Part shown: piece by piece, positions 7,499 to 32,366 of the stretch
Numbering within the stretch: the stretch's first letter is position 1
Layout of the letters: each line of letters opens with the position of its first letter
Assembly (NCBI GenBank): GCA_037439485.1
Contig: JBBIVY010000025.1
Location: forward strand, 1-36,142
From: Planctomycetota bacterium
Lineage (GTDB): Bacteria; Planctomycetota; DG-23; DATKVD01
Length of the DNA stretch: 36,142 nucleotides
Direction of reading: 5' to 3'
Notes under the pieces: model-generated
What the model saw: only the letters and a program-made list of their open reading frames with translations
Told to the model about the DNA's origin: nothing
Database searches by the model: none
Position numbers and translations under genes: made by a program

Positions 7499-9772
7499 TC
7501 AGTGAAGTTCCGCGTGCGCGGGCGCGGATTCGTTTCCCTGCCGGTCGACGGCGGTAATGGCGTAGAACACCGGCCTGGCATCCGCCGGTGCGGACCAGTC
7601 GAGATAGCCGGTCATCGAGGCCAGGGGCGATACGATCAGGCGCTTCTGAGAGACCTCGGGCTTGCCCTTCGTCGAGAAGTAGACGTTGTAGTAGCGCAGG
7701 TCGGTCGCCGGCGACTTGTCCCACTTGAGGCGATATTGCCCGTCCTCATCGGCTTCCTTCGTCACCGTGAATCCCGTGACGGCCGGCGGAGGAGTCTTGT
7801 CCCAGCCGGTGATGCCGGGAGCGGAGGAATACTTCTGCGGCAGCGGCTCGTCGAAGCCGGTGACGTTCGGCTCGGACTTCGCGTCGGGCTTTGCGGCGGT
7901 CACGGTCAGCAGGTTCGACGTGCAGGCGCTTTCGAGCGTCGACCATTCCTCCGCGGTCACGGCGTAGGTGTAAGTCTTTCCCCTCTCGGCGGCGCCGTCG
8001 GTGTAGGTGGTCTGGAGCACGACCGTCGAGGTCAGTTCGAGGAAGTCCTTGCCGTCGGCTGTGCCGCGGTAGACGTGATAGCCCTTCGTCTCGTGCGACA
8101 TCGCGGCCGGTTTCCACTGGAGGGTGATTCCTGGGCCGCCCCCTATCTTCAGGTCCGTCGGCGGGTCCGGCCGCTTCGTCACGGCGACGTAGATCCCGTT
8201 GAACTCGTCGTAGGGCATGAGCATGGCGCTGTGGAACCAGACTTTGGTGCCGTCGGGCGAAAGCTCGGGGCGGGGGATGGAGGAGTATGGCCGGGCCGCG
8301 TTTGAGTCCATCCCGGTCCACTTCATCTCGCCGGTCTTTCGGTCCTTGGAGACGCCGCCGCGGACGTCGGAATAGGAGTAGCAGAGCGCCTCCCACCAGC
8401 CCTTCGCGTCGCCCCAGACGATGGCGTCGCTTTCCTTGACGCGGTCGCGCCATTCGCTGCCGATGTGCGCGGCCCAGACGTTGGGGTTGAGGCAATTGCC
8501 TCCGGCGATGTGCCCGCCGGGCGCGGTGGTGATGAACTTCGGTGCGGCCTTGTCGTCGGCGTAATCGCGCAGCCAGATGCCCCATCCGCCCACCTGCTTG
8601 CCGGTCTCGTCCTTGACCGGCCCGGCGAAGTAGAGCCCCGAGGTCGAGCCGCCGCCGAACTCGGCGCCGTGGGATTCATACTGGTCCCACGGGTTGCGCC
8701 CGCTGCCGCCGATGATCTTCGGGTGCGTCGGCGTGCCGTCCAGGCCGTTCGTCACGTCGAGCCTCCAGCCGAGCGGCTCGCCCACGCTCGTGCGCGGGCC
8801 GTAGTTCCAGCGGACGGCCTTGCCGCCGTCGGCGAAGCCGATGCCGTGAACCTGGTAGTTGTTGGCCGCGTCGTGGACGACCTTGCCCTTGTCGTCCTTG
8901 ATCTCGGCGAGGCCGTAGTCGAGCGGGTGGTGATAGTAGAAGCCCTTCTCGCCCGGTTTCTTGCGCGTGTCGACGAGGTGGATTTCGGGCATGTAGGCCG
9001 GCTTCTTCGTCGTGCGGTCGACGTCGGCGTTGACGTCCTGGATGAGGAGCCGTCCGTCGTCGCTGATCTCGTGGACGATCTTGCGGTGGGGCGTGGCGAG
9101 CTTGCACACAAGCTCCCCGGTCGCGACCGCGGTCCCTCGGGCCACGCGGATGCGCCAGAGGTCGTCGTTCACCGCGAAGTAGACGCTCTCGGGGTCGACC
9201 GGGTCATAGATGTAATAGGGCCCGTCGATGCCGGTGGCGCGTTTCATCGCGCGGCCCTTGAGGTCTTTGTATTCGTCCTTCGGGAAATCGATGATGAGCG
9301 TCCGCTGGTTCGTGTAGTCGGCGTCCATCACGTACTTGTATCCGGCCCAGGGGGCCTTGACGAGCTTCCCGTCGGCGTCGATGAAGCCTCGGTTGCCCAT
9401 GAAGCAGATGACGGAGCCGTTACAGTTCCACGCCGGCCGGCCCAGGCCGTTGTGGCACATCTCCGCGGACAACTCGCGCGTGAGGCCCATCACCTCGTGG
9501 CCCGACTTCGTGTCCTTGAAGAAGATCGTCTCCGGCTGCATCACGCCCGTCTTCTTGTCGAGCACCTTGTCGAACGGCTTGCGGTAGAGGTTGTCGATGC
9601 GCGCGGTCAGCTCGTCGAGGTCCTGGCACACGCGATAAGGCTGGGTGATGAGCTGGTGCGGCACGGGGTCGACATACTTGCCCTTCGGGGCGTCTTGCGC
9701 GAAGAGGGTTGTCGCGACGAGGAGGGTGAGTAGGGGCACGGCATGCCGTGCCCGTCTTTCTGTTTTTCGCAA
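7499..9772 (-). CDS. Large secreted protein, 757 aa, with a signal peptide and Fn3-like C-terminal repeats. Function unknown.
   Basis: TTG start (MRKTERRARHAVPLLTLLVATTLFAQDAP). Trp/Gly-rich central region. The C-terminus has two repeats of the type ...YHVYRGTADGKD... / ...YNVYFSTKGKP.... Coordinates are taken from the track; the printed sequence is offset by 1 nt here. Confidence 0.7.
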   Translation of the reverse strand: MRKTERRARHAVPLLTLLVATTLFAQDAPKGKYVDPVPHQLITQPYRVCQDLDELTARIDNLYRKPFDKVLDKKTGVMQPETIFFKDTKSGHEVMGLTRELSAEMCHNGLGRPAWNCNGSVICFMGNRGFIDADGKLVKAPWAGYKYVMDADYTNQRTLIIDFPKDEYKDLKGRAMKRATGIDGPYYIYDPVDPESVYFAVNDDLWRIRVARGTAVATGELVCKLATPHRKIVHEISDDGRLLIQDVNADVDRTTKKPAYMPEIHLVDTRKKPGEKGFYYHHPLDYGLAEIKDDKGKVVHDAANNYQVHGIGFADGGKAVRWNYGPRTSVGEPLGWRLDVTNGLDGTPTHPKIIGGSGRNPWDQYESHGAEFGGGSTSGLYFAGPVKDETGKQVGGWGIWLRDYADDKAAPKFITTAPGGHIAGGNCLNPNVWAAHIGSEWRDRVKESDAIVWGDAKGWWEALCYSYSDVRGGVSKDRKTGEMKWTGMDSNAARPYSSIPRPELSPDGTKVWFHSAMLMPYDEFNGIYVAVTKRPDPPTDLKIGGGPGITLQWKPAAMSHETKGYHVYRGTADGKDFLELTSTVVLQTTYTDGAAERGKTYTYAVTAEEWSTLESACTSNLLTVTAAKPDAKSEPNVTGFDEPLPQKYSSAPGITGWDKTPPPAVTGFTVTKEADEDGQYRLKWDKSPATDLRYYNVYFSTKGKPEVSQKRLIVSPLASMTGYLDWSAPADARPVFYAITAVDRQGNESAPAHAELH
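9733..9752. repeat. 20-bp perfect palindrome GGGCACGGCATGCCGTGCCC, copy 1. Lies inside the first codons of the secreted-protein gene, encoding RARHAVP.
   Basis: Read directly from the sequence. Coordinates +/-1. Confidence 0.7.
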
Positions 9773-9842
9773 GTCAGGACCTCCTGTCGTGGTGTGCTCA
9801 AAAATGTCCCCGGATAACTGCTTCGCACCGGGGAACCATGAC

Positions 9843-9862
9843 GGGCACGGCGTGCCGTGCCC
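9843..9862. repeat. 20-bp near-perfect palindrome GGGCACGGCGTGCCGTGCCC, copy 2. About 70 bp upstream of the secreted-protein start codon.
   Basis: Read directly from the sequence. Single central G/T mismatch. Coordinates +/-1. Confidence 0.7.
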
Positions 9863-10124
9863 CTACGATACAAGTCGATCGCGGTGGTCGCATTGAACAT
9901 GCTACCCCCGCCGGGAGGCGCCGTCCAGTCCAGATATTCGTTTCTGCGTTCCTGCGTCGACGCTATGAGGCGATGGCGATGTGATCGCGATCCGGCCTTG
10001 CGGACAAGAAAAGCAGGCGACGGCACAAGTCATTGCTGCGGGGGATGTTACGCTCGGTATTTCTGCGGCGCTTCTCCGCTTCACGCGACGATTAAGACGG
10101 CATGGAAATATTACACATTCTGTG

Positions 10125-29153: not shown

Positions 29154-30461
29154 GTGTTCCGGAATCGTCCGCCGAAGATCGCGGTCATCGGCGCCGGCTC
29201 GTCGAGCTTTTCGAGCCTGCTGGGCGATCTCGTCTCGTGCCGGGACCTCGACGGCGCGCGCGTGGCGCTCGTGGACATCGACGCCGAGGCGGTGGACCTG
29301 GCGGAGCGCCTGGGCCGGCGGATGTCGCGCGAGTGGGGCCGGGGCACGCAGGTCTCGGCCTATGACGACCGGTGCGAGGCGCTCAAGGACGCGGACTTCG
29401 TCGTCCTTCTCGTCGGCGTGGGCGGCGTCAAGGCGTGGAAGCAGGACGAGGCCATTCCGGCGAGGCACGGTTTCCACGGCCATTCCTGCGACACGACCGG
29501 CGCCGGCGGGCTCTTCCGCGGCCTCCGGGTGATTCCCTCGATCCTCGACGTCTGCCGCGACGTCGAGCATGTCGCCCCGCGCGCGCTCGTCATCAACTAC
29601 TCGAACCCCGTGACCGCCGTCTGCCGCGCGATCCGCAAGGCATCGTCGGCGAACGCCGTGGGCCTGTGCACGGCGGGGTTCCCTCCGACGCAGGTCGCGC
29701 GGTTTCTGGACATCCCCCGCGATCGCGTGGACGTCATCTCGGCGGGGCTCAACCACTGCGTCTGGGCGCTCAAGGTCTTCATCGACGGCGAGGAGAAGAC
29801 GCAGTATTTCTACGACGCCGTGCGCAAACGCGAGGCGAAGTCGTTCTACGCGTCGAGCGTCGAGATCCTCGACCTCTTCGGCGTCTGGCCGATGCCCGGC
29901 GCGGGGCACGTCGCGGAATTCTTCCCGTGGTTCTTCGGCCCCGAGAAGGACGGGCGCGACGACGGGCGCTACCCGATGCGCGAGGACCGCATCGACTGGG
30001 CCTCCCGTCTCAAGCGCGAGCGCGAGCGCCTTCGCCGCATCCACGCCCGGGCCAACGGCCTCGAACCCCTCGGCGGCCCCTCGGAGGAGAGTCCCGCGGA
30101 CGCCGTGCGGATGATGGCGTCGATTTGGCATAATCGCCCGGCGCGCTTCTACGCCGACGTGCCCAACGGCGGGACCGTGCCGAACCTGCCGATCGAGTCG
30201 ATTGTGGAGGTGCCGGTCATCGCCGACGCCTCCGGCGTGCGCGCGGTGGAGGTCGGGCCGCTGCCGCCGCAGGTCGCGGGGTTCATGCAGGCCCGCTGGG
30301 CCTATAACGAAATCCTGGCCGACGCCGCGATTCAGAAGTCGAAAGCACTTGCATTAAGGTGCCTCGTCGCGGATACTAACACGACGAGCATCAGCCGGGC
30401 GAGGGCCTGCGTCGACGCGATGTTCCGAGCGCAGCGTGAGTTCCTTGCCGGCTACAAGTGA
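29154..30461 (+). CDS. Glycoside hydrolase family 4 (NAD+/divalent-metal-dependent glycosidase)
   Basis: N-terminal KIAVIGAGSSSFS Rossmann motif. Overall GH4 architecture (..NYSNPV..CTAG..GLNHCVW..). GTG start 4 nt after GAGG. Confidence 0.8.
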   Translation: MFRNRPPKIAVIGAGSSSFSSLLGDLVSCRDLDGARVALVDIDAEAVDLAERLGRRMSREWGRGTQVSAYDDRCEALKDADFVVLLVGVGGVKAWKQDEAIPARHGFHGHSCDTTGAGGLFRGLRVIPSILDVCRDVEHVAPRALVINYSNPVTAVCRAIRKASSANAVGLCTAGFPPTQVARFLDIPRDRVDVISAGLNHCVWALKVFIDGEEKTQYFYDAVRKREAKSFYASSVEILDLFGVWPMPGAGHVAEFFPWFFGPEKDGRDDGRYPMREDRIDWASRLKRERERLRRIHARANGLEPLGGPSEESPADAVRMMASIWHNRPARFYADVPNGGTVPNLPIESIVEVPVIADASGVRAVEVGPLPPQVAGFMQARWAYNEILADAAIQKSKALALRCLVADTNTTSISRARACVDAMFRAQREFLAGYK

Positions 30462-30487
30462 AGCGGCGGGATTTCAAGGAGGTCTCC

Positions 30488-30643
30488 ATGACGTTGAAGC
30501 GGCTTTTCTTCGCGGCGGCCCTCCTGGGGATGGCCCTGGCGTGGATGGGTTGCCAGTCGGACTCGTCCAACAGCAAGTCCGGCGGCACGTTGCCCCCTCA
30601 TTACGTGAAGGGGGAGGGCTATGACCCCGGCCCCGGTAAATAG
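30488..30643 (+). CDS. Candidate small lipoprotein, 51 aa
   Basis: AAGGAGG lies 5 nt upstream of the ATG. MTLKRLFFAAALLGMALAWMGC signal peptide with a lipobox (MGC), then a Ser/Gly/Pro-rich tail. The track's longer 61-aa form starts inside the GH4 stop region with no RBS. Confidence 0.4.
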   Translation: MTLKRLFFAAALLGMALAWMGCQSDSSNSKSGGTLPPHYVKGEGYDPGPGK

Positions 30644-30709
30644 TTAGTTCCCTCCATCGTGTCGGGGCGGTTTTGCCCTTCGGCTCAAAAATTATGTCTT
30701 TCTCCCTTT

Positions 30710-30826
30710 GACCTGATATGATAACCGTGTGAGGCTCTCCTTGCCCGGTGGGCGTTAGGGTGTCGTGACAACACCATTCTAACAACCCCACCGGCGGGAG
30801 ACCTCACACGGTTATCGTATCAGGTC
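30710..30826. repeat. About 115-nt near-perfect extended hairpin/palindromic element: an outer stem of about 30 bp with one G-U and one bulge, an inner 9-bp stem and a nested apical stem-loop. Candidate structured ncRNA or MITE-like/recombination scar element.
   Basis: Left arm gacctgatatgataaccgtgtgaggctctcc (30710-30740) is the reverse complement of ggagacctcacacggttatcgtatcaggtc (30797-30826) with 1 mismatch and a 1-nt bulge. Inside, cccggtggg pairs with cccaccgg, and gttagggtgt...acaccattctaac forms an apical hairpin. Confidence 0.6.
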
Positions 30827-30889
30827 AGGCCGGGCGCCCGCCTCGTCTCGGCGGAAGAGGACGTCGCAACACCAAGCCTGCCGGAGTTT

Positions 30890-31391
30890 GAGCTCGAAGA
30901 ACGGGTCAACTTCGAGCTATCGGTCCTTGAAATCCCGCTCTTCGCCCACCCGGCGGCGATTGTGCGCCAATCCTTCGGTTGTTATCCTGAGCGAAGCGAA
31001 CGATCTACGCGGACTTGCGAGAAAGCCCTCGTGGCATCCGGCGGCTCTCCCCGAATTGCCGGCCGGATTCCTCGGCCCGCTGAAGCGGGTCTCAGAATGA
31101 CAGCTCTAGCGGAGGAGTTGCCGCGGTTGCTCGGCAAGCGCGGCCGCATGTTGCGGGATATTGGCCACCACCCGCGGCGCCCCGACGAAGAACGGAGAGA
31201 TCATGCAGTTCGTCACCCTCGAAGACGAGACCGGCGTCTTCGAGGTCACGCTCTTCCCGAATATCTATTCCCGCGTCCGCCGGCTCCTGAGCGATGGCGG
31301 CCCATATCTCGTCGAAGGCCGCGTTGAGGAGCAATACGACTCGCTCTCGGTCAATGCCTGGCGGTTCGAGCAAACCGGTGCTGAGGAGTGA
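30890..31391 (+). pseudogene. Frameshifted C-terminal remnant (about the last 150 codons) of a DnaE-family DNA polymerase III alpha / error-prone DnaE2 (ImuC). The 5' about 3 kb of the gene is absent.
   Basis: Frame 0 (31135-31391) reads ...LATTRGAPTKNGEIMQFVTLEDETGVFEVTLFPNIYSRVRRLLSDGGPYLVEGRVEEQ..., which resembles the C-terminal OB-fold region of DnaE/DnaE2 (F-x-TLEDETG motif). A different frame upstream (30890-31100) reads ...FELSVLEIPLFAHPAAIVRQ..., resembling the preceding ...SxHPL... segment. There is no start or RBS, and in-frame stops occur at 31098 and 31107. Confidence 0.45.
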
Positions 31392-31504
31392 ATCGGAAGC
31401 CCAGACGGCCGGGGCGTTGCGAGGGAGGGGGGGCAACGGAAAATAATGATTTACGCAGCGCGCGCCGGAGGCTATGATTCGTGCGTCGATAAGAATTTGT
31501 GTTC

Positions 31505-31581
31505 GGGCCCGTAGCTCAGTTGGTTAGAGCGGCGGACTCATAATCCGCTGGTCGCTGGTTCGAGTCCAGCCGGGCCCACCA
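31505..31581 (+). tRNA. tRNA with anticodon CAU. Most similar to tRNA-Ile2 (lysidine-modified, AUA-decoding, ileX-like); elongator tRNA-Met cannot be excluded by eye. CCA is encoded.
   Basis: Cloverleaf GGGCCCG/UA/GCUC-AGUUGGUUA-GAGC/G/GCGGA-CUCAUAA-UCCGC/UGGUC/GCUGG-UUCGAGU-CCAGC/CGGGCCC-A-CCA. Near-identical in arm sequences to E. coli ileX as recalled from memory. Confidence 0.9.
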
Positions 31582-31598
31582 AGTTGTCGGGAGTCGTC

Positions 31599-32366
31599 GT
31601 GATCGAAGACCTGAGTTCCATCCTGCGCTCGTGGCCCTACGGCGAGGGGGCCAACGCCCGGAAGATCGTCGGCGAAGACGGCCGCGAGAAGGTGCAGCTC
31701 CGCGTCGTCATCGAGGGGCTGCACGGTATCCTGCAGTTCGACTGCGACGGCCGCCCCGATGGCGCCCGCCCGCACGAGCGGGAGTTCGCGCTCGACCACT
31801 TCGAGGACCTCGCCGAGACCCGCCGCGCCGCGGGAGGCCCCATGTTCCGCCTGAGCCGCAAGCAGGCCGCGGAGCTTTTCGAGGAAAGCTCCATGATCTA
31901 CCAGCGATACGTCCTCCTGCTGCAGATGAACGACTATGACCGAGTTATCCTCGACACCGAGCGCAACATGCGCCTCTTCCGATTCGTCCACGAGCACGCT
32001 GCGCAGGCGGAGGATCGGGATAACCTGGAGAAGTGGTGGCCCTACGTTCTTCGCGTTCACTGGACCGCGCGGACGCTCAAGGACCTGGAGGCCGAGCGGT
32101 TCGACGCGGCGCTGGAGTCGGTGGCCGAGGCGCGAAAGCTCCTCGCAGAGATGTCGCCTCAGGAGAACGAGGTCTTCCAGGCGGAGATGAAGCGATCGAA
32201 TGAGGCGCTCGACGATCTGGAGAAGACGATCGCCGAGCACCGTCCAGTGAGCGAACTGGAGCAGCTCGAACGCGAGAAGGCCGAGGCTATCAAGGCCGAG
32301 GATTACGAGCGCGCCGCGACGCTCCGGGATCGCATCGCGGAGCTTCGCCGGGCGAGCGAGGCGTAG
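31599..32366 (+). CDS. Hypothetical cytoplasmic protein with a C-terminal UvrB/UvrC (UVR) interaction motif
   Basis: GTG start 5 nt after GGGAG, only 17 nt after the tRNA 3' end. C-terminal ...IKAEDYERAATLRDRIAELRRA matches the UVR-motif pattern. Confidence 0.6.
   Translation: MIEDLSSILRSWPYGEGANARKIVGEDGREKVQLRVVIEGLHGILQFDCDGRPDGARPHEREFALDHFEDLAETRRAAGGPMFRLSRKQAAELFEESSMIYQRYVLLLQMNDYDRVILDTERNMRLFRFVHEHAAQAEDRDNLEKWWPYVLRVHWTARTLKDLEAERFDAALESVAEARKLLAEMSPQENEVFQAEMKRSNEALDDLEKTIAEHRPVSELEQLEREKAEAIKAEDYERAATLRDRIAELRRASEA

What the first reader, a model, noticed from the sequence alone, without database searches (positions are those of the whole stretch)
30710..30826. About 115-nt near-perfect hairpin element in a non-coding scar region
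An outer stem of about 30 bp (1 wobble, 1 bulge), an inner 9-bp stem and an apical stem-loop make a rod-like structure far longer than a terminator, and it has no T-run. It lies between the end of an operon and a degraded polymerase gene, inside an 850-bp non-coding stretch. Candidates are a MITE or other palindromic mobile element, a recombination scar or att-like site, or a structured small RNA. Its position next to a truncated gene favours a role in, or a record of, a rearrangement.
Basis: seen in the sequence. Interest (0 to 1): 0.55.

Follow-up and report, generated by a model that had tools for sequence, protein, structure and literature searches.

The report
Dead insertion-sequence end folded into hairpin
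The long hairpin is the leftover left end of an IS110/IS1111-type jumping gene that has lost its transposase, sitting exactly where a DNA polymerase gene was cut off; it is a scar of an old rearrangement, not a new RNA or a new kind of element.

Summary
The hairpin is real: 30709-30827 folds at -91 kcal/mol (+ strand) and -88 kcal/mol (- strand), z about -11, and is single-copy in the window. It has an identifiable origin. Read on the minus strand, 30822-30728 is 95% identical over 97 nt to the left end (5' untranslated region) of a full-length IS110-family insertion sequence from a metagenome (L006). Relatives (L003, L008, L022, L034) align to it too. In those elements the same stem-loop buries the Shine-Dalgarno sequence and ATG of a DEDD transposase. 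They have IS1111-group architecture: short left end, 9-bp subterminal inverted repeats, and a 205-250-nt 3' non-coding region with guide-like segments that covary with the insertion junctions. In the window the transposase, the 3' non-coding region and the right end are gone, and the start codon reads ACG. The outer 19 bp of the stem are absent from intact copies. They are an inverted copy of the left-end tip, and arm identity stops exactly at the boundary shared by independent IS copies. Homology to DnaE begins at 30827, the last base of the palindrome. Most likely two inverted IS copies collapsed by deletion, taking the 5' part of dnaE with them. It is an ordinary mobile-element scar of low novelty.

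The parts
30709..30827 (-). The whole 119-nt palindromic remnant. It consists of an orphan IS left end plus an inverted copy of that end's own tip.
   Evidence: Folds; inverted repeat I9; coordinates.
30728..30822 (-). Left end (LE) / 5' UTR of an IS110-family (IS1111-group-like) insertion sequence, running from TGATACG... through ...CCTCACA.
   Evidence: 94.8% identity over 97 nt to L006 LE (E 7.6e-37), 80% to L003 and 82% to L008. Alignments.
30807..30815 (-). Left subterminal inverted repeat, ATAACCGTG.
   Evidence: every full-length relative has ATAACCG(T/C)G in the LE and C(A/G)CGGTTAT at the RE. L006 carries a compensatory pair (ATAGCCGTG / CACGGCTAT).
30735..30742 (-). Former Shine-Dalgarno sequence of the lost transposase gene (AAGGAGAG), lying in the 3' strand of the stem.
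   Evidence: AAGGAG(G/A) lies 6-8 nt before the ATG in all relatives and is largely paired in their folds.
30726..30728 (-). Position of the transposase start codon, now ACG. Homology to the IS stops here.
   Evidence: relatives read CCTCA(CA)TG followed by the ORF MxYxGIDLH; the window reads CCTCACACG followed by the inverted LE tip.
30709..30727 (-). Inverted duplicate of the LE tip (CGGTTATCATATCAGGTCA on the minus strand). It creates the outer 19 bp of the stem and is absent from intact ISs.
   Evidence: One search shows that intact right ends read ...CACGGTTAT-GGGTG(T/C)C, not ...CACGGTTAT-CATATCAGGTCA.
30823..30827 (-). The 5 nt TGACC just outside TGAT, repeated in inverted form at 30709-30713. 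This is the outermost block shared by independent IS copies and matched by NCR segment S1 in relatives. Arm identity ends here.
   Evidence: 5 contiguous nt upstream of TGAT equal the S1 segment in 6 of 8 loci, 5 of 7 distinct elements (L032 has the same TGACC). The window flanks differ at the next base (CCCTT vs CGGCC).
30827..30970 (+). DnaE relic, first block. Homology to DnaE begins at the last base of the palindrome.
   Evidence: RPGARLVSAEEDVATPSLPEF... aligns from residue 89 of P0121. Coordinates.
30971..31105 (+). Insert of about 135 nt interrupting the DnaE relic. It is an unrelated repeat-like element carrying TATCCTGAGCGAAGCGAACGATC.
   Evidence: gap in the DnaE alignment; window 31062-31102 is 83% identical to L035 483-523 in reverse orientation.
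31106..31388 (+). DnaE relic, second block, with a frameshift near 31161-31168. It includes the C-terminal OB fold.
31505..31581 (+). tRNA-Met (CAT). This is context: the DnaE-then-tRNA-Met order is conserved in a relative.
   Evidence: L036 has a DnaE C-terminus followed by tRNA-Met.

Best explanation
The hairpin is a dead remnant of an IS110-family insertion sequence of the IS1111 type, lying on the minus strand.

Shown:
- Window 30822-30728 (minus strand) is the element's left end, i.e. the 5' UTR of its DEDD transposase gene.
- In intact relatives this region forms a 40-48-bp imperfect stem-loop.
- The 3' strand of that stem-loop contains the Shine-Dalgarno sequence and abuts or includes the ATG.

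Inferred, by analogy with IS10, IS50 and IS200: the stem-loop keeps the transposase untranslated on read-through transcripts.

Shown for this locus:
- The transposase ORF, the 3' non-coding region that would encode the guide (seek/bridge) RNA, and the right end are all missing.
- The start codon reads ACG.
- The ORF is replaced by an inverted copy of the first 19 nt of the left end. This lengthens the native stem into a near-perfect 119-nt palindrome.
- DnaE homology starts at the last base of the palindrome, while the other flank is unrelated intergenic DNA.

Inferred origin: two copies of the IS sat in inverted orientation with their left ends outward, bracketing the 5' part of dnaE. A deletion between the short direct repeats (GGAGAG)CCTCACA removed everything in between. 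These repeats lie at the 3' base of one left-end hairpin and, as the reverse complement of the 5' base, in the other copy. The event would resemble 'nearly precise excision' of Tn10, which leaves a small palindrome of the IS10 outer ends.

The remnant is probably inert today. Confidence is about 0.9 that it is an orphan IS left end, and about 0.45 for the two-copy collapse as the specific origin of the outer stem.
For: - Identity: blastn of three full-length ISs against the window hits only the hairpin. The hit to L006 is 94.8% over 97 nt (E 7.6e-37) on the minus strand; the + strand match is only 73%.
- Parent elements: the proteins next to the homologous left ends carry PF01548 DEDD_Tnp_IS110 and PF02371 Transposase_20, with 1589 homologues at E <= 1e-20.
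- Architecture: the left end is 85-100 nt and the 3' non-coding region 205-250 nt. The 9-bp subterminal repeats include a compensatory change in L006. This matches the IS1111-group description in PMC11208160 and PMC11187229.
- Guide-like segments: the non-coding segments xxxxxTGATTGGG and GCGAATGGGTGyy covary with the left and right junctions.
- Hairpin conservation: 31 consensus pairs across 6 sequences, 2 of them with compensatory changes. The divergent members L023 and L032 have different sequences but still fold so that GGAGG and AUG are paired.
- Missing parts: no transposase, non-coding region or right-end fragments are found in the window.
- Second arm: it is a left-end tip, not a right end. 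Intact right ends continue GGGTG(T/C)C after CACGGTTAT; the window continues CATATCAGGTCA, which is the reverse complement of TGACCTGATATG.
- Palindrome boundary: arm identity stops exactly after the 5 nt that are the outermost block shared by independent copies and matched by the guide-like segment. Two bona fide IS ends predict this; fold-back copying does not.
- Arm mismatch: the single difference between the arms falls at the most polymorphic left-end position (T, C or G among relatives).
- DnaE truncation: homology to P0121 starts at 30827, and the left flank shows no DnaE reading frame.
Against: - The source genome could not be retrieved, so copy number and the presence of intact copies in that genome are unknown.
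- No locus with two inverted copies was found, nor any other left-end/left-end palindrome. The other orphan left ends seen (L001 and its identical copies L002/L005, and L004) are simple truncations.
- Two cognate insertions close together in inverted orientation are a priori uncommon for a target-specific IS. Tandem copies 1,460 nt apart do occur, however (L011 and L014).
- The role of the native hairpin in translation control is inferred from structure only.
- The conserved TTGACA in the right end cannot be placed at a proper distance from any -10-like box of the left end under my inferred junction. My assignment of the exact IS termini and core is therefore uncertain.
Confidence: 0.8

Rival explanations
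1. Fold-back (snap-back) repair synthesis. A break occurred inside a single IS copy just 3' of the left-end hairpin. The exposed 3' end ...CCTCACA annealed to TGTGAGG within the same strand and primed synthesis that copied the left-end tip. The extended hairpin was then joined to a distant end, deleting the transposase and the 5' part of dnaE.
For: It needs only one IS copy. The native hairpin provides the primer-template. The arms are almost identical, 25 of 26. The deletion and the palindrome arise in one event at the dnaE truncation point.
Against: Copying would be expected to run an arbitrary distance into the flank. Instead the arms stop matching exactly at the 5-nt block that marks the outer limit of what independent IS copies share, which this model must treat as a coincidence. 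The single arm mismatch lies at the family's most polymorphic site.
Confidence: 0.25
2. A non-autonomous mini-IS (MITE-like). The left end plus a minimal right end (the 9-bp subterminal repeat CACGGTTAT) would be mobilised in trans by the IS1111-type transposase and its guide RNA, and inserted here.
For: The 3' arm does contain CACGGTTAT, identical to the terminal repeat of intact right ends. Mini-ISs with short ends and modular circles are documented for this family (PMC11187229; PMC12288879).
Against: There is no second copy in the window, and no palindromic copy in the genome, metagenome, viral, plasmid or phage searches. The 10 nt beyond CACGGTTAT are the exact complement of the left-end tip plus its 5-nt outer block, which a right end or a random flank would not give. 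The left flank is not dnaE, so the element was not simply inserted into the gene.
Confidence: 0.07
3. A single IS inserted into a pre-existing palindromic target (TGACCTGAT-CAT-ATCAGGTCA). An internal deletion then ran from the start codon to the right-end subterminal repeat.
For: One insertion plus a microhomology (CA) deletion reproduces the sequence. Members of the IS110/IS1111 family often target palindromic repeats (PMC12288879; PMC11208160 reference list).
Against: It requires a right flank (CATATCA) unlike the GGGTG(T/C)C or GGGAGTT seen next to every full-length relative and matched by their non-coding segment. It also requires a 5-nt chance complementarity between the target and IS-internal bases.
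Confidence: 0.05
4. A functional structured RNA or a transcription or replication barrier retained by selection, such as an sRNA, a terminator for the upstream GH4-lipoprotein operon, or a recombination (att/dif-like) site.
For: The structure is very stable and lies 66 nt after the upstream ORF. In L001 the same motif lies 5 nt after a tyrosine-recombinase gene.
Against: There is no Rfam match, no T-run or terminator-like site and no nearby promoter-like site. The window has no recombinase gene. The L001 occurrence is a truncated half-site of the same IS left end. All homologues of the sequence are IS left ends.
Confidence: 0.03

Closest known systems
IS1111-group elements of the IS110 family (e.g. 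ISEc11, IS4321/IS5075, ISPa11), which are guided by a seekRNA / bridge RNA
   Same: The parent elements of the hairpin encode a DEDD_Tnp_IS110 + Transposase_20 protein. They have a short left end, a long 3' non-coding region and 9-bp subterminal inverted repeats. Their short non-coding segments match the insertion junctions. This is the organisation described in PMC11208160 and PMC11187229.
   Different: The window holds only the left end, with no transposase, no guide-RNA region and no right end. No junction promoter could be reconstructed with the termini I inferred. These Planctomycetota-type members match no Rfam family and were not compared with ISfinder, which is not available here.
The palindromic remnant left by 'nearly precise excision' of Tn10 (Foster et al. 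1981, Cell 23:215; from my own knowledge, paper not read here)
   Same: It is a short palindrome made of the outer ends of two inverted IS copies. It is produced by host-mediated deletion between short direct repeats near the base of a large inverted repeat. It remains at the site as a polar scar.
   Different: The IS family and the repeats differ: about 7-13 nt (GGAGAG)CCTCACA here, against 24 bp in IS10. The two-copy precursor is inferred here, not observed.
MITEs (miniature inverted-repeat transposable elements)
   Same: It is small, non-coding, derived from an IS and has terminal inverted repeats that fold into a rod-like hairpin.
   Different: No multiple copies were found, there is no target-site duplication, and the flanks are not contiguous. 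Both termini are left ends, so the element lacks the right-end sequences that the family's intact members carry.
RBS-sequestering 5' stem-loops of IS transposase mRNAs (IS10 'fold-back inhibition', IS50, IS200; from my own knowledge)
   Same: The native inner hairpin pairs the Shine-Dalgarno sequence and the start codon of the transposase in all relatives examined.
   Different: The function has not been tested for this family. In the window there is no ORF left to regulate.

Membership tests
IS110 family / IS1111 group insertion sequence | Encodes a DEDD transposase (PF01548 + PF02371). | tested here: not met
   tblastn of the L006 and L003-type transposases against the window gives nothing below E = 3.5. 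The relatives L003 and L006 do encode it. The window element is therefore a remnant, not an IS.
IS110 family / IS1111 group insertion sequence | Left-end sequence homologous to that of family members. | tested here: met
   94.8% identity over 97 nt to L006 LE (E 7.6e-37), and 80-82% to L003 and L008. Alignments.
IS110 family / IS1111 group insertion sequence | Subterminal inverted repeats of 7-17 bp (PMC11208160). | tested here: met
   ATAACCGTG lies at 30807-30815(-). Relatives pair it with CACGGTTAT at the right end, and L006 shows a compensatory change. In the window the partner is supplied by the inverted left-end copy, not by a right end.
IS110 family / IS1111 group insertion sequence | Long non-coding region downstream of tnp that encodes the seek/bridge RNA, with segments matching target and donor. 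| tested here: not met
   It is absent from the window. It is present in relatives, where the segments covary with the junctions. Rfam 15 has no matching model, and RNA expression cannot be tested here.
MITE | Multiple dispersed copies in the genome. | tested here: inconclusive
   There is one copy in 36 kb. No palindromic copy appears in the genome, metagenome or viral scans with the arm pattern or in plasmids and phages. The source genome itself could not be retrieved.
MITE | Simple insertion, i.e. the flanks are contiguous in the empty site, usually with a target-site duplication. | tested here: not met
   The right flank is DnaE from residue 89 of the P0121 alignment onward. The left flank is AT-richer intergenic DNA with no DnaE frame. 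There are no direct repeats at the borders.
Intrinsic terminator | GC-rich stem followed by a T-run. | tested here: not met
   No terminator-like site is found in 30300-31600 on either strand. The stem is followed by AGGCCGGG on the + strand and AAGGGAG on the - strand.
Any Rfam 15 RNA family | Covariance-model score at or above the gathering threshold. | tested here: not met
   Only the tRNA passes. The best match over the hairpin is CbSR2 at 15.5 bits against a threshold of 300.
Tyrosine-recombinase att/dif-type site | A cognate recombinase nearby, with short inverted binding arms around a 6-8-bp crossover region. | tested here: not met
   The window has no homologue of the L001 recombinase. 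The L001 occurrence is a truncated copy of the IS left end. The arms here are 26 nt and separated by 67 nt.

The most novel reading that the evidence does not exclude
The perfected palindrome made of two left ends is not an accident of host repair. It would be a recurrent product or substrate of the RNA-guided IS1111-type recombinase. One possibility is a hairpin mini-element carrying two guide-matched left junctions around the palindromic AT core, which the transposase can still recognise, invert or mobilise. The remnant would then mark recombinase-driven deletion of an essential-gene segment.
Probability: 0.05. Interest if true: 0.45.

Novelty: new member of a known kind. Interest (0 to 1): 0.18.

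Why it matters
The main value is for annotation. A striking 119-nt hairpin that matches no RNA family is explained as the orphan 5' end of an IS110/IS1111-type element, and the truncation of the neighbouring dnaE copy is tied to that element. There is also a small by-product. This Planctomycetota-type IS lineage shows a conserved left-end hairpin that buries the ribosome-binding site. It also shows two 3' non-coding segments that covary with the insertion junctions. These are ready-made predictions for anyone cataloguing natural bridge/seek-RNA recombinases. Nothing here challenges current knowledge.

Tried and rejected
- Retrieving the source contig by exact protein look-up failed for three window ORFs and for P0019. 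Genome-wide copy number could therefore not be measured.
- Rfam found nothing but the tRNA, at gathering and at permissive thresholds on the window and on three full-length IS loci.
- The arm pattern is absent from viral contigs. A transposase search in viral contigs found only relatives at 23-26% identity, which were not used. BLASTN of the element against plasmids and phages gave no match.
- Tyrosine-recombinase site idea: it was prompted by L001, where the motif follows an integrase gene. I rejected it once L003, L006 and others showed the motif is the start of an IS110-type element and L001 is a truncated copy.
- Left-end plus right-end internal-deletion MITE: rejected because intact right ends continue GGGTG(T/C)C after the subterminal repeat, whereas the window continues with the complement of the left-end tip.
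- Origin of the 3' arm from the first codons of the transposase: intact elements do pair the left-end tip weakly with ATG-CRT-TAC-RTC. However, only about 10 of the first 12 positions can be aligned, and that needs two indels. The remaining 9 nt show no similarity, so the perfect arm is a templated or recombinational copy.
- Junction promoter: TTGACA is conserved 3 nt before the right subterminal repeat. With the AT core I inferred, the distance to TAnGAT or GATAAC in the left end is 10-13 nt, so no canonical promoter could be reconstructed (my own counting). This is left unresolved.
- An integron attC reading of the inner GTTAGGG...TCTAAC was considered. I dropped it because the motif order is wrong and no integrase is present.

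Full report
**Observation**

The reported structure exists. Window 30700-30836 folds at -91.2 kcal/mol as + strand RNA and -87.6 kcal/mol as - strand RNA. Dinucleotide shuffles average -44 to -45 kcal/mol, giving z = -11.5 and -10.8, and none of 200 shuffles folds as well.

The exact palindrome is 30709-30827. Its outer arms are 26 nt and differ at one position. There is no T-run and no terminator-like or promoter-like site at the element. The arm sequence occurs only here in the 36-kb window. Rfam 15 gives nothing over it, at gathering or at permissive thresholds.

**Context**

- Upstream on the + strand lie a GH4 glycosidase ORF (29154-30461; PF02056/PF11975) and a small lipoprotein-like ORF ending at 30643.
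- Downstream lies a DnaE C-terminal relic. Its OB fold matches PF01336 and Taq DnaE residues 1038-1122. It is 70% identical to P0121, a DnaE C-terminus from a metagenome.
- The relic is dead. It lacks everything N-terminal to residue 89 of the P0121 alignment. It carries an insert of about 135 nt (30971-31105) and changes frame near 31161-31168.
- tRNA-Met follows at 31505-31581. The same order, DnaE C-terminus then tRNA-Met, occurs in L036. The relic therefore sits at the ancestral dnaE position.
- The best-named relatives are Planctomycetota MAG sequences.

**Finding relatives of the hairpin**

A scan of one genome per species with the arm sequence found one locus, L001, in a Planctomycetota MAG. 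A metagenome scan found four more. None of these carries the palindrome; each has one arm only.

In L001 and its identical copies L002 and L005, the motif sits 5 nt after a tyrosine-recombinase gene and breaks off after about 35 nt. L004 is another truncated copy.

L003 was decisive. There the motif is followed by the rest of the inner hairpin, then AAGGAGG, then ATG and a 334-aa ORF with PF01548 (DEDD_Tnp_IS110) and PF02371 (Transposase_20). That protein has 1589 homologues at E <= 1e-20, most of them on contigs of 1.2-2 kb, as expected for a repeated IS.

**Identity and strand**

I fetched the contexts of several homologues. All show the same layout:

- a left end of 85-100 nt beginning ...TGATA(T/C/G)(G/A)ATA(A/G)CCG(T/C)G;
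- a stem-loop ending in the Shine-Dalgarno sequence and ATG;
- the transposase gene;
- a conserved 205-250-nt 3' non-coding region;
- a right end reading ...TTGAC(A/T)nnC(A/G)CGG(T/C)TAT-GGG(T/A)G....

The left and right ends share a 9-bp subterminal inverted repeat (ATAACCGTG / CACGGTTAT). L006 has a compensatory variant (ATAGCCGTG / CACGGCTAT).

A short left end, a long right non-coding end and subterminal repeats of 7-17 bp are the published hallmarks of the IS1111 group of the IS110 family. In that group the guide (bridge or seek) RNA is encoded downstream of the transposase (PMC11208160; PMC11187229).

When three full-length elements are blasted against the whole window, the only significant hits fall on the hairpin, and the best are on the minus strand. 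L006 gives 94.8% identity over 97 nt (window 30822-30728, E 7.6e-37). L003 gives 80% and L008 82%. The + strand alignments reach only 73-75%, which reflects the quasi-palindromy of the structure.

The element must therefore be read on the minus strand: TGATACG-ATAACCGTG-TGAGG...stem-loop...GGGCAAGGAGAG-CCTCAC-ACG. Here ACG occupies the position of the transposase ATG. No trace of the transposase, the 3' non-coding region or the right end exists anywhere in the window.

**What the native hairpin does in the intact IS**

Six alignable left ends share a consensus structure of 31 pairs. Most variation is one-sided, and two pairs show double changes.

More telling are the divergent members. L023 and L032 have largely different left-end sequences. 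They still fold into a stem whose 3' strand contains GGAGG and abuts or includes the AUG. Intact left ends fold at -36 to -59 kcal/mol with z of -2.6 to -7.

I infer a translational-occlusion role, as in IS10, IS50 and IS200 (established knowledge, not tested here). In the window the hairpin no longer has an ORF to control.

**What is peculiar to this locus**

Intact elements pair the left-end tip only weakly with the first codons of the ORF. In the window, the 19 nt that follow CCTCACA (minus strand: CGGTTATCATATCAGGTCA, 30727-30709) are the exact reverse complement of the left-end tip, apart from one base. That tip includes five bases (TGACC) outside TGAT.

This second arm is not the family's right end. 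After the shared 9-bp repeat, real right ends continue GGGTG(T/C)C or GGGAGTT, whereas the window continues CATATCAGGTCA. A simple left-end plus right-end mini-IS is therefore rejected.

**Where the palindrome stops**

In the 3' non-coding region of the intact elements, two segments copy the junction sequences.

- Segment xxxxxTGATTGGG equals the five bases preceding TGAT at the left junction: CCAAG in L006, GTGAC in L003 and L022, TATAC in L023 and L028, TGACC in L032.
- Segment GCGAATGGGTGyy follows the variation of the right junction.

L023 and L028 are two copies of one IS with different left flanks, and they share exactly these five bases and no more. Whether the five bases are guide-specified target or the outermost bases of the IS, they mark the limit of what independent copies share.

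The two arms of the window palindrome share exactly TGACC and differ at the very next base (CCCTT|TGACC against CGGCC|TGACC). Two genuine IS left ends predict this. A fold-back copying event running into the flank would produce it only by coincidence. The single mismatch between the arms lies at the most variable left-end position in the family.

**History inferred**

DnaE homology starts at 30827, the last base of the palindrome. The opposite flank is unrelated, AT-richer intergenic DNA. So a deletion, not a simple insertion, created the present junctions.

The most economical history is this. Two copies of the IS lay in inverted orientation with their left ends outward, one of them within dnaE. 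Everything between them was lost by deletion between the short direct repeats (GGAGAG)CCTCACA. Those repeats exist because each left-end hairpin is quasi-palindromic. This parallels 'nearly precise excision' of Tn10, which leaves a small palindrome of IS10 outer ends (my own knowledge; Foster et al. 1981).

My probability estimates are:

| Origin of the outer stem | Probability |
|---|---|
| Collapse of two inverted IS copies | about 0.45 |
| Fold-back repair synthesis from a single copy | about 0.25 |
| Mobilisable mini-IS (MITE-like) | about 0.07 |
| Single insertion into a palindromic target, then internal deletion | about 0.05 |
| Selected RNA or DNA function | about 0.03 |

The core statement, an orphan left end of an IS1111-type element, I hold at about 0.9.

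**Limits**

- The source genome is not in the searchable collections (and no self-hit). Copy number in that genome is therefore unknown.
- The collection scans required exact 20-21-mers, so diverged palindromic copies could have been missed.
- The exact termini and core of the IS are inferred from eight loci. They do not yield a canonical circle-junction promoter, even though a TTGACA is conserved in the right end.
- No expression data are available.

**Verdict**

This is a decayed member of a known kind of element, so interest is low.

Noticed in passing
window 9730-9866: A second, unrelated inverted repeat lies in the intergenic region between ORFs ending near 9772(-) and starting at 9981(+). 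Its 27-nt arms (GTAGGGGCACGGCATGCCGTGCCCGTC / GACGGGCACGGCGTGCCGTGCCCCTAC) are 96% complementary and 83 nt apart. Each arm is itself a palindrome (GGGCACGGCATGCCGTGCCC). Only these two copies occur in the window. It looks like a REP-type pair.
   Followed up: partly
window 30971-31105: An insert of about 135 nt interrupts the DnaE relic where relatives have about 12 codons. It carries TATCCTGAGCGAAGCGAACGATC. Part of it (31062-31102) is 83% identical, in reverse orientation, to L035 483-523, just downstream of DnaE in a Planctomycetota MAG. This suggests a small dispersed repeat. Its fold is not unusual (z = -0.84).
   Followed up: partly
L003, L006, L008, L022, L023, L028, L032 (3' non-coding regions, about 80-140 nt after the transposase stop codon): Two conserved segments of the 3' non-coding region copy the insertion junctions and covary with them. 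Segment xxxxxTGATTGGG matches the 5 nt before TGAT at the left junction. Segment GCG(A/G)ATGGGTGyy matches TATGGG(T/A)Gyy at the right junction. They are predicted guide segments of a seek/bridge RNA for this uncharacterised Planctomycetota-type IS1111-like lineage. Both are same-sense relative to the junctions, which I could not reconcile with published guide geometry.
   Followed up: partly
right ends of L003, L006, L008, L022, L023, L031/L032: TTGAC(A/T) is conserved 3 nt upstream of the right subterminal repeat. It looks like the -35 box of a circle-junction promoter. With the termini I inferred, however, it lies only 10-13 nt from the -10-like boxes of the left end.
   Followed up: no
L001 5003-5952 (identical in L002 and L005): A truncated left end of the same IS family starts 5 nt after the stop codon of a 303-aa tyrosine recombinase (PF00589 + PF02899). 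L034 has a similar A-rich flank (AAATAAACGG). In L022 the IS follows directly after a Y1_Tnp (PF01797) gene. The family seems to favour sites just past gene ends.
   Followed up: no
L011 1541-3996 and L014 846-3301; L023-L030: L011 and L014 carry tandem copies of the P0030 IS, 1,460 nt apart. All P0042 IS copies lie immediately upstream of an IS3-family element (HTH_Tnp_1 + rve) with the same right flank but two different left flanks. The targets seem to lie in or beside other repeats.
   Followed up: no
L036 1-45: The contig carrying P0121 begins with Illumina adapter sequence, which translates as VTGVQTCALPIL. The apparent N-terminus of that DnaE fragment is therefore an assembly artefact.
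   Followed up: yes
window 30827-31581 compared with L036: The dead DnaE fragment lies at the conserved position upstream of tRNA-Met. The gene that was destroyed was therefore the syntenic dnaE copy, and an intact dnaE must lie elsewhere in this genome.
   Followed up: no
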